From a virus (lineage: Duplodnaviria; Caudoviricetes): DNA of 64,000 bases. The position numbers and the translations under genes are program-made. Location: positions 139,857 to 203,856 of the IMG/VR virus record IMGVR_UViG_3300013426_000016; one strand, given 5' to 3'. Each line of letters begins with the position of its first letter. Within the stretch, counting starts at the first letter, position 1. Under the pieces are notes generated by a model. The model worked only from the letters and a program-made list of their open reading frames with translations, searched no databases and was not told the origin of the DNA. Positions 36,972 through 39,530 of the stretch are shown here, piece after piece.

Positions 36972-36984
36972 TTGTGAATTACAC

Positions 36985-37069
36985 TATAATCTAAAAGAGT
37001 GGGTTCAATTCCCACTATCACCAGGTAACAGAGGTGATATAGTGTAATTGGGGCACATTAGATTAATAT
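36985..37069 (+). ncRNA. Circularly permuted tRNA-like RNA (YrlA-like topology)
   Basis: 3' half TCTAA-AAGA-GTGGG-TTCAATT-CCCAC-TATCACC-A precedes a 9-nt linker and 5' half GGTGATA-TA-GTGT-AATTGGG-GCAC-A-TTAGA. Confidence 0.8.
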
Positions 37070-37141
37070 TGAAATATGGTGTAATGGTTAGCACTTCAGA
37101 TTTTGGTTCTGGCAGTTTAGGTCCGAATCCTAATATTTCAA
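37070..37141 (+). tRNA. tRNA-Gln (TTG)
   Basis: TGAAATA/TATTTCA acceptor, TCAGA-TTTTGGT-TCTGG arm; variant T-loop TCCGAAT. Confidence 0.85.
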
Positions 37142-37162
37142 CTAAATTTAATTTTCATCATT

Positions 37163-37519
37163 ATGATTAAAGAAATGGTTTACTCTCATCTTCGAGAAAA
37201 AGAAATTTTAATGGAAGATGTGTATAAAGACATCCCTTTTGTTATTATCAGTTACGGTCTTTGGCCATGTTGTTATTTCCAAATCTCTACAGAAGAACCT
37301 AAAGCTGATATAGACATCGATGATTTTCATGGCTTAGATGTTCATGGAGGGGTTACACTTGCTGGGAATCTTCCTGGTTATAAAGGAACTTGGATAGGTT
37401 GGGATTATGCACATTGTGGAGATTTCGATGTTTTTACAAAAGATGGAGATGAATGGTTTATAAAAGACCTTATAAACGAAACTCTTACTGGAATTGATGA
37501 CTATTTAAAAACTTTTTAA
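37163..37519 (+). CDS. Conserved phage hypothetical protein
   Basis: DVHGGVT..WIGWDYAHCGD motif. Confidence 0.75.
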   Translation: MIKEMVYSHLREKEILMEDVYKDIPFVIISYGLWPCCYFQISTEEPKADIDIDDFHGLDVHGGVTLAGNLPGYKGTWIGWDYAHCGDFDVFTKDGDEWFIKDLINETLTGIDDYLKTF

Positions 37520-37520
37520 T

Positions 37521-37757
37521 ATGAAAGGCGATTTGCTTTATGACAAGTACTCTATTATTTCTGAGAAAACTCTTAGAAAACCAGAGTCACAGTACAAGTC
37601 TTGGATTTCTAAGCATAAAGAAGGTAAATTGGTAAAGACTGCAAGAGGATATTTCCTTAATGGCTACCAAATTGATCTTCGTAGTGCTTATGAGTGGTTT
37701 CTTTATAATCAGTTTGATAAAGAAGCTACTGCTCTTTCTACTCCTTTTATAGGATAA
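37521..37757 (+). CDS. Hypothetical protein
   Basis: 78 aa ORF. Confidence 0.6.
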   Translation: MKGDLLYDKYSIISEKTLRKPESQYKSWISKHKEGKLVKTARGYFLNGYQIDLRSAYEWFLYNQFDKEATALSTPFIG

Positions 37758-37766
37758 TTCTTTTAT

Positions 37767-37837
37767 GCTCGGATCGTCTAATGATTAGGACAACTTCCTC
37801 TCCGGTTGTTATATAGGTTTGACTCCTATTCCGAGTA
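37767..37837 (+). tRNA. Degenerate tRNA-Glu (CTC)-like gene
   Basis: GCTCGGA/TCCGAGT acceptor and ATAGG/CCTAT T-stem, but no D-loop GG, a TTTGACT T-loop and a mismatched anticodon stem. Confidence 0.55.
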
Positions 37838-37845
37838 CTACTTTT

Positions 37846-38177
37846 GGGTTACTTCAGCATTTATATTTAAAGTACCACTTTATTTTTTTTTACTCATGTA
37901 ACCTGTTTTTTAAGATTACTTTTTAAAGATTACTTCAGCATTAAATTTTTAATTTAGAGCATTGATTTTTGCAAAATTATTTTTATAGTAATCTGATTTT
38001 TTAAGGTTGATTATACAGCATTTCATTAAAGAATTTGTGATTCATAATTTCAGCCTGGTTTTTTTTTGGAAATAGTTCAGCATTCCTTTTTGCAAATGAT
38101 TAGTTTTTTAGACCATTGTATAGGGGAGAGACACACTATTTCGACATAAAGTCTCTCTCCTATACTTTTTATTTTTT
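37846..38177 (+). ncRNA. Array of four CAGCATT stem-loop units plus terminator/attenuator hairpin
   Basis: Stems GGGTTAC/GTAACCT, AGATTACT/AGTAATCT, AGGTTGA/TCAGCCT, GAAATAGT/ACTATTTC, each 5' arm followed by CAGCATT. Confidence 0.7.
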
Positions 38178-39530
38178 ATGAACAAATTAGTCGAATCTCT
38201 TGACATGGGGTATACTAAAAACGGTGCCCTTACATATAAGACATCTCTTAACAAATGTCTCGATCTCTTCTTTGTTATAGGCTGCCATAATGATTATTCT
38301 GAGCTATTTTGGGAAGCATATAAAGAAGATGCACAACTTGCATTACGTATTCTTTTTTGGAGTAGAGATTGTAGAGGAGGAGCTGGAGCAAGAAGAACTT
38401 TCCAAGAAGTTATTAAAGTTCTTTCCGGTAGCCCAGAATTTTCAAAAGTCCTAAAATATATTCCAGAATTTGGATATTGGAAGGATCTTTTTAAACTTTC
38501 TCCAACTAAAGAGATAGCCGATTTTATTATCGCTACTTTAAAGAATGAAAATGATCATTCTTTGTGTGCTAAATACTGTCCACGTAAAGGACTGTGGTTT
38601 GGTTATTTGCGAAATCTAATGCACATGTCTGCTAGGGATTTTCGCCATTACATAGTATATAAAACACAAGTTGTGGAACAGCTTATGTGTGCTAATAAAT
38701 GGTCAGAAATAGAGTATTCTTCAGTTCCGTCTCTCGCTGGGCTTAGATACTCTAAATTATTCCTTAAGCATGATCCAGAACGTTATAAAACATATATAGA
38801 TAAAGTAAATGAAGGAAAGGAGAAAATAAATGCTTCTGTTCTTTATCCACATGAAATTTTTGCTTCTTACATGACAGATAAAAAAAGAGATGTAACAAGA
38901 GCTTTGTGGAATGCTTTACCTAATTATATGCAAGATTGTAATGAAAACATTTTGCCTATATGTGATGTTTCTGGTTCTATGATAGGTCTTCCTATGAATA
39001 TTTCTGTATCTTTGGGTTGTTATATCTCAGAAAGAAATACTGGAGACTTTAAAGATTGTATTATCACTTTTTCCCAATGTCCGGAGTTTGTTAAACTTAC
39101 TGGAAGTATAGATGAACGCTTTGCTCAATTAAGAACAAGCTCATGGGGATTTAATACTAATCTGCGACGAGTATTTGATCTTATTTTGAAACGAGCTGTT
39201 ATGAATGAAGTTCCAAAAGAAGATATGCCTACTAAGTTGTTGATTATCAGTGACATGGAACTAGACGATGCGTCACCAGAGTATACAAACTTTGAAGCTA
39301 TTAAACAAAAATATGCAGCTTCTGGATATGAGATGCCTACTATTATTTTCTGGAATGTTAATGGAAGATTAAATAATATTCCTGTACAAAAAGATGAAAA
39401 GAATGTAGCACTTGTTTCCGGATATTCACCAAGTATCTTAACGCATCTTTTGAAAGGAGAGGTTCTTACTCCTATGCAAATAATGCTAGATACAGTAAAC
39501 TCTGAACGTTATCAGTGTATTAGGTTGTAA
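38178..39530 (+). CDS. DUF2828-family (TROVE/Ro60-like) vWA protein
   Basis: TKNGA..CLDLFF..RDCRGGAG..GYWKDL..AKYCPR..MIDAS DVSGSM..ISDME..IFWNV..LVSGYS. Confidence 0.85.
   Translation: MNKLVESLDMGYTKNGALTYKTSLNKCLDLFFVIGCHNDYSELFWEAYKEDAQLALRILFWSRDCRGGAGARRTFQEVIKVLSGSPEFSKVLKYIPEFGYWKDLFKLSPTKEIADFIIATLKNENDHSLCAKYCPRKGLWFGYLRNLMHMSARDFRHYIVYKTQVVEQLMCANKWSEIEYSSVPSLAGLRYSKLFLKHDPERYKTYIDKVNEGKEKINASVLYPHEIFASYMTDKKRDVTRALWNALPNYMQDCNENILPICDVSGSMIGLPMNISVSLGCYISERNTGDFKDCIITFSQCPEFVKLTGSIDERFAQLRTSSWGFNTNLRRVFDLILKRAVMNEVPKEDMPTKLLIISDMELDDASPEYTNFEAIKQKYAASGYEMPTIIFWNVNGRLNNIPVQKDEKNVALVSGYSPSILTHLLKGEVLTPMQIMLDTVNSERYQCIRL

What the first reader, a model, noticed from the sequence alone, without database searches (positions are those of the whole stretch)
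36977..39530. Candidate new system: DUF2828 Ro60-like RNP with a split Y-RNA-like repertoire inside a phage tRNA cluster
Inference joining the separate observations. A helical plus vWA (MIDAS DVSGS) protein resembling Ro60 in architecture is co-oriented with a YrlA-topology tRNA mimic, aberrant tRNAs and an array of putative binding stems. Ro60-Y RNA complexes act in RNA quality control and often lie near RNA repair genes. I know of no characterised RNA partner for DUF2828. A plausible role is protecting or recycling tRNAs under attack by host tRNases in a recoded phage.
Basis: inference. Interest (0 to 1): 0.85.

Follow-up and report, generated by a model that had tools for sequence, protein, structure and literature searches.

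The report
Phage Ro60-like protein with partner RNAs
A 204-kb phage encodes a ring-shaped protein built like the RNA-surveillance protein Ro60, preceded by four copies of a short RNA "handle" that sits next to this gene in very different phages, plus a rearranged tRNA look-alike; the RNAs are probably the protein's partners, a pairing I found in no paper or RNA catalogue.

Summary
ORF 38178-39530 is a DUF2828/DUF7788 protein. Its AlphaFold model matches Ro60 over the whole length (Z 19.1, 396 residues), well above matches to the vWA domain alone (Z 10-11).

Upstream on the same strand lie:
- a circularly permuted tRNA (36987-37065);
- tRNA-Gln;
- an aberrant tRNA-Glu(CUC)-like element (37767-37838);
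- four tandem "handle" units (37846-38143), each a 7-bp stem P1, then NNCAGCA, a variable loop, the P1 return strand and G.

The handle recurs upstream of DUF2828 in 113 of 154 phage loci. Controls gave 0 to 3. P1 covaries. A covariance model built only from other phages finds exactly these four units in the window, and nothing else credible in the 204-kb genome.

In T4-like loci, Felixounavirus Alf5 and mycobacteriophage LeBron, some units carry a T-arm then D-arm tRNA mimic, as in YrlA Y RNAs.

Most likely this is a second kind of Ro60/Y-RNA particle (confidence 0.6). RNA binding and any anti-tRNase role are untested. TGA recoding of late genes is real. "tRNA cluster" overstates the context, and no RNA-repair gene is nearby.

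The scan has noted the same system in at least 40 other genomes. I found no description in Rfam or in the papers searched.

The parts
36987..37065 (+). Circularly permuted tRNA-like element with YrlA topology. It runs: closing stem strand, variable region, T-arm, 7-bp acceptor stem closed by a 9-nt loop, D-arm, closing stem strand. It has no CAGCA handle.
   Evidence: Direct parse of the sequence. The rejoined halves give a full cloverleaf with default ARAGORN. The fold has z -3.15, with an alternative perfect 12-bp stem 36977-36988 / 38-49 of 370xx. No Rfam Y RNA or YrlA match at E<=10.
37070..37142 (+). Canonical tRNA-Gln(UUG), 4 nt after the permuted element.
   Evidence: ARAGORN; Rfam tRNA 58.5 bits.
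37163..37519 (+). ORF of 118 aa, function unknown (phrog_2164).
   Evidence: Not found in related loci.
37521..37757 (+). ORF of 78 aa, function unknown. In L081 and L082 it sits in the same place, just upstream of the tRNA-Glu-like element.
   Evidence: tblastn 44-47% identity in L081 and L082.
37767..37838 (+). Aberrant tRNA-Glu(CUC)-like element with an 8-nt anticodon loop, no G18G19 in the D-loop and T in place of C56. It probably acts as a processing signal or tRNA mimic at the head of the RNA array.
   Evidence: ARAGORN at relaxed thresholds only; fold; cloverleaf conserved with 11 compensated pairs in L081-L083. The relatives score 48-56 bits with Rfam tRNA; the window copy has no match.
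37846..37905 (+). Handle unit 1: P1 GGGTTAC/GTAACCT, core TTCAGCA, 38-nt AU-rich loop, 3' G.
   Evidence: Model R1, 31.0 bits, E 8e-4; script scan.
37927..37995 (+). Handle unit 2: P1 AGATTAC/GTAATCT, core TTCAGCA, 47-nt loop, 3' G.
   Evidence: Model R1, 38.4 bits, E 2.8e-5; script scan.
38004..38057 (+). Handle unit 3: P1 AGGTTGATTA/TAAT-TT-CAGCCT with a 2-nt bulge, core TACAGCA, 24-nt loop, 3' G.
   Evidence: Model R1, 14.9 bits, which is at noise level on its own. Supported only by its tandem position and by direct reading.
38069..38143 (+). Handle unit 4: P1 GAAATAG/CTATTTC, core TTCAGCA. The 3' strand of its P1 lies in the loop of the hairpin in front of the gene, which makes a pseudoknot.
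   Evidence: Model R1, 16.0 bits. P1 covaries in relatives: GGAATAG/CTATTCC (L081, L082), AGAATAG/CTATTCT (L083), GGAATAA/TTATTCC (L084).
38118..38177 (+). 15-bp hairpin (38118-38132 with 38151-38165) plus the T-run TTTTTATTTTTT that abuts the ATG. It looks like a terminator and overlaps unit 4.
   Evidence: Fold -24.1 kcal/mol, z -6.31. The stem covaries in L081-L084.
38178..39530 (+). DUF2828/DUF7788 protein, 450 aa, with a Ro60-like fold: helical ring plus a vWA domain with a complete MIDAS motif.
   Evidence: Pfam; PHROG 850 at 1e-132; AF2 model pLDDT 83, pTM 0.81; Foldseek top 13 hits all Ro60/TROVE; VIA-align Z 19.1, 396 aa, rmsd 3.9 against 2i91_A.
39539..39566 (+). Terminator-like hairpin plus T-run directly after the DUF2828 stop codon. 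The next gene probably starts at ATG 39577.

Best explanation
The locus most likely encodes a Ro60/Y-RNA-like ribonucleoprotein of a second, undescribed type.

The DUF2828 protein is a Ro60-shaped ring with a vWA/MIDAS domain. The small RNAs transcribed just upstream share a constant handle: a 7-bp stem P1 that joins the two ends, the single-stranded core NNCAGCA on the 5' side, and CUG at the 3' end. I infer that this handle is the protein's binding site, in the way the conserved stem of a Y RNA is for Ro60. The variable loop would then be a cargo or effector module.

In other phages the cargo is often a tRNA mimic in T-arm, acceptor-like hairpin, D-arm order. In this phage the four cargos are short AU-rich loops. 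The tRNA mimicry is supplied separately, by a handle-less permuted tRNA and an aberrant tRNA-Glu-like element.

The RNAs are probably cut out of a tRNA-linked precursor by RNase P and RNase Z.

Unit 4 is pseudoknotted with the terminator-like hairpin that abuts the start codon. Binding of the protein there could feed back on its own expression.

By analogy with Ro60, the particle would bind structured or damaged RNAs, plausibly tRNAs, or recruit a host nuclease to them during infection.

Shown here: the fold, the RNA structure and the co-occurrence. Inferred: binding, processing, autoregulation and the cellular role.
For: Fold:
- The best PDB matches are all Ro60/TROVE. Foldseek gives E 7e-8 to 2e-6 over about 500-550 alignment columns, gaps included.
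- VIA-align gives Z 19.1, 396 of 450 residues, rmsd 3.9. vWA-only hits reach Z 10-11.
- The MIDAS residues are invariant.

Association of the RNA with the gene:
- 113 of 154 DUF2828 loci (42-58% protein identity; gut, freshwater and marine phages) have at least one unit in the 800 nt upstream on the gene's strand. Controls: 0 on the reverse complement, 3 in shuffles, 3 of 144 downstream.
- 128 of 241 core instances have a P1 of at least 7 bp followed by G, against 7.0 expected.
- 5 of 7 P1 pairs show changes on both sides. The covariation score is 0.669, against 0.232 in shuffles and at most 0.10 when the partners are slid.

Specificity:
- Model R1, built without any window sequence, hits only the four-unit array in the window. 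In the 204-kb genome it hits only three units of that array plus one marginal hit at E 8.
- Phages K, T4, T5 and DAC16 lack the protein and have no credible unit.

Y-RNA-like design in distant lineages:
- Felixounavirus Alf5 has at least four units between tRNAs, 0.3-1.2 kb downstream of the gene. One carries T-arm, hairpin and D-arm.
- LeBron has three units directly after its 'Ro-like' gp53, one with the same cargo.
- T4-like loci L059-L079 carry T-arm then D-arm cargo inside the unit nearest the gene.

Precedent: Ro60 with same-strand neighbouring YrlA tRNA mimics in bacteria and 22 phages (PMC4201824), and Thermus phage phiLo Ro60 with Yrl1 and Yrl2 (PMC12135203).
Against: - No binding data exist for any DUF2828 protein.
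- The handle motif is unrelated to the Ro60-binding motif GNCGAAN0-1G, and no Rfam Y RNA or YrlA match was found.
- The protein has no TROVE sequence signal, either in Pfam at E<=10 or in a PDB profile search.
- Units 3 and 4 score at the model's noise level. An antisense hit in T4 reached 25.5 bits.
- All surveyed loci were chosen because they contain DUF2828. Few genomes without it were tested, so the reverse association is weakly sampled.
- Co-location in tRNA regions could come from shared transcription rather than from binding.
- The stand-alone permuted tRNA has no handle and no counterpart in the nearest relatives. Its membership of the system is weak.
- 41 of 154 loci showed no unit with my strict scan.
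Confidence: 0.6

Rival explanations
1. The units are only cis-acting leader elements of the DUF2828 mRNA, that is attenuators or translation controls read by some other factor, and are not free partner RNAs.
For: In the window and most loci the units lie 100-450 nt upstream on the gene's strand. Unit 4 is intertwined with a terminator-like hairpin that abuts the ATG, and both helices covary.
Against: In Alf5 and LeBron the units lie downstream of the gene, between or after tRNAs. Units come in tandem arrays of up to four, each closed by its own stem. Some carry whole tRNA-like domains. All of this fits separate small RNAs better than one leader.
Confidence: 0.15
2. The units are small RNAs or processing spacers of phage tRNA regions that work without DUF2828. 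The protein merely shares the same early-gene neighbourhood.
For: Units follow tRNA or tRNA-like genes by about 8-12 nt in the window, L081 and Alf5. 35 of 80 IMG/VR loci have co-oriented tRNAs within 5 kb. Phage tRNA clusters are known to hold stable RNAs of unknown function, such as T4 rnaC and rnaD and the T5 RNAs.
Against: In this genome the other tRNA sites (tRNA-Met at 30322; tRNA(UCA) at genome position 38494) have no unit, and the array sits only in front of DUF2828. Many loci have units but no tRNA within 5 kb. T4, T5, K and DAC16 have tRNAs but neither the protein nor credible units.
Confidence: 0.15
3. The repeats act at the DNA level, as promoters, operator sites or recombination sites, and not as RNA.
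For: They are short repeated motifs in an intergenic region. The 9-mer TTCAGCATT occurs only here in the 204-kb genome.
Against: The stem partners change together while the sequence is not kept, which preserves pairing rather than a DNA word. There is a strict strand bias: 113 loci against 0 on the reverse complement. Promoter scans give nothing above chance.
Confidence: 0.05
4. This rival concerns one part only. The permuted tRNA at 36987-37065 is a relic of a tandem tRNA duplication and deletion. It has no function and no link to DUF2828.
For: It has no handle. I found no counterpart in L081-L086. Its 5' half resembles the 5' half of the adjacent tRNA-Gln (repeat D7). Chen et al. warn that dimeric tRNAs mimic this layout. 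An alternative 12-bp stem competes with the cloverleaf.
Against: All four arms are intact, and the two acceptor strands are perfectly complementary across the junction, which unrelated neighbouring tRNAs would not be. The same T-arm, hairpin, D-arm layout is carried inside handles next to DUF2828 in Alf5, LeBron, L056, L061, L071 and L076.
Confidence: 0.35

Closest known systems
Ro60 (Rsr, TROVE2) with Y RNAs, especially bacterial and mycobacteriophage YrlA/YrlB (Chen et al. 2014, PMC4201824) and Thermus phage phiLo Ro60 with Yrl1/Yrl2 (PMC12135203; PDB 9KOP, 9L5Y)
   Same: - A ring of helical repeats plus a C-terminal vWA domain with MIDAS.
- Partner-like RNAs encoded within about 1 kb on the same strand.
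- RNAs closed by a stem that joins the 5' and 3' ends, with a short conserved motif on the 5' side and a variable module.
- A tRNA mimic in T-arm, acceptor-like hairpin, D-arm order.
- Occurrence in phages.
   Different: - No TROVE sequence signal, and only 9-18% identity in the structural alignments.
- The protein is about 70-80 residues shorter than Ro60.
- The conserved RNA motif is NNCAGCA with a 3' CUG, not GNCGAAN0-1G or CGAA.
- No Rfam Y RNA or YrlA match.
- Units come in tandem arrays of one to four or more, often with minimal cargo.
- In this window the tRNA mimic is not inside a handle.
- No PNPase link or RNA-repair neighbours are shown.
Class I RNAs of dictyostelid social amoebae (Kjellin et al. 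2021, PMC7919456)
   Same: - RNAs of about 60 nt with a short covarying stem joining the ends.
- A conserved single-stranded motif directly after the 5' stem strand.
- A variable remainder.
- A 3' end CUGU whose C pairs with a conserved 5' G. The phage handle has pair 2 as G-C in 114 of 126 units, and the 3' strand ends ...CU followed by G.
- The paper's invariant positions (T3, C6, C9, A10, A11) fit UUACAGCAA, the variant seen in Alf5 and L066.
   Different: - The host is eukaryotic, with its own promoter element.
- The known binder is an RRM protein (Rnp1A).
- The full 11-nt motif is from my memory; the text I read does not spell it out.
- The window's own cores read UUCAGCAU.
- Whether dictyostelids have a DUF2828 protein that binds these RNAs was not testable here.
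Stable RNAs of unknown function in phage tRNA clusters (T4 rnaC and rnaD; T5 RNAI, RNAIII, RNA1, RNA2H)
   Same: Small stable RNAs encoded among phage tRNA genes. Some are tRNA-like and are processed with the tRNAs (annotations).
   Different: T4 and T5 lack DUF2828 and show no credible handle. The best T4 hit is antisense to arn.3/arn.4.
Circularly permuted tRNA genes of the Cyanidioschyzon merolae type
   Same: The 3' half lies upstream of the 5' half and the acceptor ends are joined by a short linker. Rejoining the halves gives a canonical cloverleaf.
   Different: Those genes are expressed through circularisation by a eukaryotic or archaeal splicing endonuclease (from my knowledge), which a bacterial host lacks. 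Here the anticodon loop is not reconstituted. The layout matches the tRNA-like module of YrlA instead.

Membership tests
DUF2828 / DUF7788 (Pfam PF11443 + PF25043; PHROG 850) | Profile match above the curated cut-offs to both domains | tested here: met
   119.8 bits (cut-off 29) and 168.4 bits (cut-off 27.1); PHROG 850 at E 9.9e-133.
Ro60 / TROVE | TROVE domain recognisable by sequence profile (PF05731) | tested here: not met
   No TROVE hit at E<=10. A profile of 28 homologues finds no Ro60 chain in the PDB at E<=10.
Ro60 / TROVE | Fold: helical-repeat ring followed by a vWA domain with a MIDAS motif | tested here: met
   Z 19.1, 396 aa, rmsd 3.9 against 2i91_A. All ten best chains are Ro60 (Foldseek). 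DxSxS, T and D are invariant. The closed ring itself is inferred from the superposition, not measured.
Ro60 / TROVE | Binds Y RNA on the outer surface and misfolded RNA in the central cavity | not testable with these tools
   Needs biochemistry or a structure of a complex.
Y RNA, YrlA type (Rfam; Chen et al. 2014) | Match to the Rfam Y RNA / YrlA covariance models | tested here: not met
   cmscan of 36700-38300 at E<=10 lists no Y RNA or YrlA family. None at gathering score in the window or in 10 loci.
Y RNA, YrlA type (Rfam; Chen et al. 2014) | Conserved GNCGAAN0-1G motif near the 5' end | tested here: not met
   The conserved motif is NNCAGCA. No CGAA motif in 36940-37070 or in the units.
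Y RNA, YrlA type (Rfam; Chen et al. 2014) | tRNA-like domain in the order T-arm, acceptor-like stem-loop, D-arm, closed by a stem at the anticodon position | tested here: met
   Window 36987-37065. The same layout occurs inside handles in Alf5, LeBron, L061, L071, L076 and L056.
Y RNA, YrlA type (Rfam; Chen et al. 2014) | Encoded within a few kb of the Ro60-like gene on the same strand | tested here: met
   Units lie 35-330 nt upstream and the permuted tRNA 1.1 kb upstream, all on the + strand. Same strand in 113 of 154 loci.
CAGCA-handle RNA (family defined in this scan; no published definition found) | P1 stem of at least 6-7 bp joining the ends, NNCAGCA directly 3' of the 5' strand, and 3' strand ending (C)U followed by G | tested here: met
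   Units 1 and 2 meet it strictly. Unit 3 meets it with a 2-nt bulge. Unit 4 has a 7-bp P1 ending UC-G. R1 hits.
Canonical tRNA (element 37767-37838) | 7-nt anticodon loop with U33, G18G19 and C56 elbow contacts, and a score above tRNA model thresholds | tested here: not met
   8-nt loop. The D-loop TAATGATTA lacks GG and the T-loop reads TTTGACT. No Rfam tRNA hit at E<=10. ARAGORN calls it only at relaxed thresholds.
Dictyostelid Class I RNA | Short end-joining stem, 11-nt motif after the 5' strand (T3, C6, C9, A10, A11 invariant), 3' CUGU, about 60 nt | tested here: inconclusive
   The stem, the length and the 3' CUG(U) match. The window cores read UUCAGCAU, so A11 is not kept. No Class I model was available to score.
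Intrinsic terminator (hairpin 38118-38177) | Stable stem followed directly by a U-run | tested here: met
   15-bp stem, -24.1 kcal/mol, followed by TTTTTATTTTTT. The 18-nt loop is longer than usual, so the scanner's 3-8-nt loop limit missed it. L081 and L082 lack the U-run.

The most novel reading that the evidence does not exclude
The CAGCA handle is the recognition element of an ancient RNP shared by phages and eukaryotes. DUF2828 proteins are also found in eukaryotes. On this reading they would bind end-stem + UUACAGCAA + CUGU RNAs, and the abundant, unexplained Class I RNAs of dictyostelid amoebae would be the eukaryotic partners of a DUF2828 protein. In phages the same particle would use swappable tRNA-mimic cargo to intercept or repair damage from host tRNA-targeting defences.
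Probability: 0.15. Interest if true: 0.92.

Novelty: new variant of a known kind. Interest (0 to 1): 0.8.

Why it matters
Ro60 and Y RNAs are a classic RNA-surveillance particle and a lupus/Sjogren autoantigen. Their function in bacteria and phages is still only partly understood.

Here a second protein family with the same fold but no detectable sequence relation to Ro60 is present in 705 phage records of the cultured collection, including Felixounavirus coliphages, Listeria, Campylobacter and mycobacteriophages. It is paired with its own covarying RNA handle. If the pairing is physical, three things follow:
- A large domain-of-unknown-function family gains a function.
- Many unannotated small RNAs in phage tRNA regions are explained. 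At least one, in Alf5, lies under an annotated CDS.
- Genetically tractable systems become available (Felixounavirus in E. coli or Salmonella; LeBron in M. smegmatis) to ask what Ro-type rings do during infection.

It may also point to a protein partner for the dictyostelid Class I RNAs.

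Tried and rejected
The 59-60% identical relatives on long contigs could not be fetched. The closest loci came from the metagenome scan instead.
- Exact-pattern scans of IMG/VR for two P1+core+P1' words each returned only the contig already held as L037. They were too specific to serve as a reverse test of the association.
- Sigma-70 and Bacteroidota-type (TANNTTTG) promoter scans were at chance level. No promoter is assigned.
- The MAFFT alignment of unit 4 plus the hairpin put homologous stem strands in different columns. 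I read the pseudoknot covariation directly from the sequences and did not use the pair counter on it.
- My first unit scan demanded 'TG' after the stem and missed nearly everything, because the T is itself paired. This was corrected.
- R1 has a noise floor near 25 bits per phage genome. A T4 hit at 25.5 bits is antisense to arn.3/arn.4. Marginal hits in phiAS5 and S13, about 10 kb from the gene, are therefore not counted.
- Phage K's abundant tRNA-linked lncRNAs (PMC9241854) looked like a lead, but phage K has neither DUF2828 nor handles.
- RNA-repair neighbours: no RtcB, only a sub-cut-off PF09414 match about 104 kb away, and the Rnl1 search had no working control.
- The supplements of Chen et al. 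2014 and the 2020 Annual Review were not held. I could not check whether LeBron-type phages were among their 22 phages.
- The protein atlas gave only phage and bacterial DUF2828 clusters. It says nothing about dictyostelids.
- Neighbouring ORFs are not conserved beyond the nearest relatives. No protein partner is proposed.

Full report
**Context.** The window is the last 64 kb of a single-contig virus record of 203,856 bp with 36% G+C. CheckV rates it complete. The nearest public DNA matches are short stretches of Bacteroides and Prevotella phages. The host is otherwise unknown.

**The protein.** ORF 38178-39530 (450 aa) matches Pfam DUF2828 and DUF7788 and PHROG 850, 'RNA-binding protein'.
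- An AlphaFold2 model built on 28 homologues has pLDDT 83 and pTM 0.81.
- Foldseek against the PDB puts Ro60/TROVE structures in ranks 1-13: frog and human Ro60, Deinococcus Rsr and Thermus phage phiLo Ro60.
- VIA-align gives Z 19.1 with 396 aligned residues (model 6-430) at rmsd 3.9 against 2i91_A. Chains that match the vWA domain alone reach Z 10-11.
- The MIDAS residues are invariant.
- At the sequence level there is no TROVE signal.

So the protein has the Ro60 fold, but it is not a TROVE-family member by the family's own profile. The resemblance is not new to annotators. Homologues occur in 705 phage records, and mycobacteriophage LeBron gp53 (33% identical) is labelled 'Ro-like RNA binding protein'. 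A full-text search for 'DUF2828' returned five unrelated papers. I found no paper that gives the family an RNA partner.

**The RNA elements in the window.**
- *Permuted tRNA.* Directly after the stop codon of ORF 36753-36971 comes a circularly permuted tRNA: anticodon-stem 3' strand, variable region, T-arm, acceptor 3' strand and discriminator, a 9-nt linker, acceptor 5' strand, D-arm, anticodon-stem 5' strand. When the halves are joined in normal order, ARAGORN calls a full cloverleaf at default settings. In its native order this is the layout of the tRNA-like module of YrlA Y RNAs (PMC4201824). The acceptor stem has 7 bp. Chen et al. single out that feature as the reason M. smegmatis YrlA is cut by RNase P. 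A competing perfect 12-bp stem also exists.
- *tRNA-Gln.* It follows 4 nt later.
- *tRNA-Glu(CUC)-like element.* After two small ORFs comes this element at 37767-37838. Its cloverleaf is conserved with compensatory changes in L081-L083. In the window it has an 8-nt anticodon loop and lacks both partners of the G19-C56 elbow pair, so it is probably not a decoding tRNA.
- *Four handle units.* From about 8 nt further on, four units follow head to tail, ending in a 15-bp hairpin and T-run that touch the ATG.

**The handle across phages.** I fetched 160 DUF2828 loci from IMG/VR and metagenomes. The pattern is:

[AGRNUNN] - NNCAGCA - variable 25-120 nt - [NNANYCU] - G

- It occurs upstream on the gene's strand in 113 of 154 loci. 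Controls: none on the opposite strand, 3 in shuffles, 3 of 144 downstream.
- Given a core, a P1 of at least 7 bp plus G is found 128 times, against 7 expected.
- P1 positions 3, 4, 6 and 7 switch among A-U, G-C, U-A and C-G.
- A covariance model (R1) built from 18 units of other phages finds exactly the four window units and nothing else in 64 kb. In the whole genome it finds only this array plus one hit at E 8.
- Units 1 and 2 are significant on their own. Units 3 and 4 are not. They rest on their position and, for unit 4, on covariation in L081-L084.
- No Rfam family matches the units.

**Link to tRNA mimicry.**
- In T4-like loci L059-L079, the unit nearest the gene encloses a T-arm followed by a D-arm.
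- In Felixounavirus Alf5 at least four units lie between tRNA genes, 0.3-1.2 kb downstream of the protein gene. One encloses a T-arm, a hairpin and a D-arm, and lies under an annotated minus-strand CDS.
- In LeBron three units with cores GACAGCA, AGCAGCA and AACAGCA follow gp53 directly. The middle one has the same cargo.

The RNA family therefore has the modular plan of Y RNAs: a constant protein-side stem and a variable module that is often a tRNA mimic. However, the handle-less permuted tRNA has no counterpart in the nearest relatives, so its link to the system is the weakest part of the finding.

**Negative controls.** Phages K, T4, T5 and Bacteroides phage DAC16 have tRNA genes but no DUF2828 and no credible unit.

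**Side claims.**
- *Recoding is real.* The large terminase (window 10464-12695, minus strand) gives one continuous PHROG alignment only if its six in-frame TGA codons are read as sense. A tRNA with anticodon UCA lies at genome position 38494. The genes of this locus use TAA or TAG stops and have no in-frame TGA. This pattern is typical of early genes in recoded phages, as far as I know.
- *'tRNA cluster' is overstated*.
- *No RNA-repair gene is nearby*.

**Mechanism.** I commit to a Ro60/Y-RNA-like particle in which the handle is the binding site and the loops are cargo (confidence 0.6). A likely secondary role is cis-acting: unit 4 is pseudoknotted with the hairpin in front of the gene and could feed back on the protein's expression. 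Binding, processing and the cellular target are all inferred. The rivals are a pure leader element, tRNA-region RNAs independent of the protein, and DNA-level repeats. They are set out with their tests in the rival explanations.

**Earlier notes of this scan** describe the same protein-handle pairing in at least 40 other genomes, and they suggested a likeness to dictyostelid Class I RNAs. I checked the paper (PMC7919456). It reports a short covarying end stem, a conserved motif right after the 5' strand with invariant T3, C6, C9, A10 and A11, and a 3' CUGU whose C pairs with the 5' G. All of these parallel the handle. I could not test whether a DUF2828 protein is involved there.

Noticed in passing
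window 30981-31036 (+): Type III hammerhead ribozyme, 52.1 bits against a gathering score of 48.5. It lies 30 nt upstream of ORF 31066-31539 and 0.6 kb after tRNA-Met.
   Followed up: no
window 10464-12695 (-) and 2058-6191 (-); genome G000:C1:38494-38568: TGA is read as sense in late genes. The large terminase aligns in one stretch (residues 84-718) across six in-frame TGAs. A 1377-aa structural-looking ORF has six more, in Trp-like contexts. A tRNA with anticodon UCA is encoded outside the window.
   Followed up: partly
window 30100-30320 (+): Comparatively G+C-rich stretch with several hairpin-like inverted repeats and no convincing ORF, directly upstream of tRNA-Met. Possibly another structured RNA.
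   Followed up: no
window 39539-39576 (+): A second 'hairpin + T-run + ATG' junction directly after the DUF2828 stop codon. The next gene probably starts at ATG 39577, not at the TTG at 39537 given by the ORF list.
   Followed up: partly
L162 (Escherichia phage vB_EcoM_Alf5) 4836-5159: The annotated minus-strand CDS Alf5_ORF044c overlaps two plus-strand handle units (4848-4920 and 4935-5062), one with a full tRNA-like cargo. The CDS may be a mis-call. Two unannotated tRNA-like sequences lie at about 4299-4384 and 4465-4545.
   Followed up: partly
L164 (Mycobacterium phage LeBron) 3945-4200: The 360-nt 'empty' gap after gp53 holds three handle units with cores GACAGCA, AGCAGCA and AACAGCA. Their 3' strands are followed by AG rather than G. 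The middle unit carries a T-arm, hairpin and D-arm.
   Followed up: partly
L083 3700-3815: tRNA-like gene with normal acceptor, D and T arms. Its anticodon arm is replaced by an insertion of about 60 nt that contains TAGTTCAGCA. This is a non-permuted way of joining a tRNA body to the core motif.
   Followed up: no
L046 4437-4502: Pistol ribozyme (51.1 bits, gathering score 34.5) about 0.5 kb upstream of that phage's DUF2828 gene, just before its handle units.
   Followed up: no
L001 4420-4640 (same as L084 3420-3640): Unannotated stretch of about 220 nt, rich in long-range complementarity, between tRNA-Leu and tRNA-Met upstream of DUF2828 in the 165-kb relatives. No Rfam match was sought for it alone.
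   Followed up: no
L005, L017, L028 and relatives, last unit before the gene: In the freshwater clade a segment inside the unit's loop (for example CCCGGGAAGGTAC) is complementary to a segment downstream of P1 (GTACCTTCCC). This suggests a second pseudoknot and a larger ornate fold of 150-250 nt.
   Followed up: no
L161 (Cronobacter phage S13) 4369-4611: Two over-long features annotated 'tRNA-Ser' (121 nt) and 'tRNA-OTHER' (113 nt) lie 0.5 kb downstream of DUF2828. They may be tandem tRNAs or tRNA-like RNAs that were mis-called.
   Followed up: no
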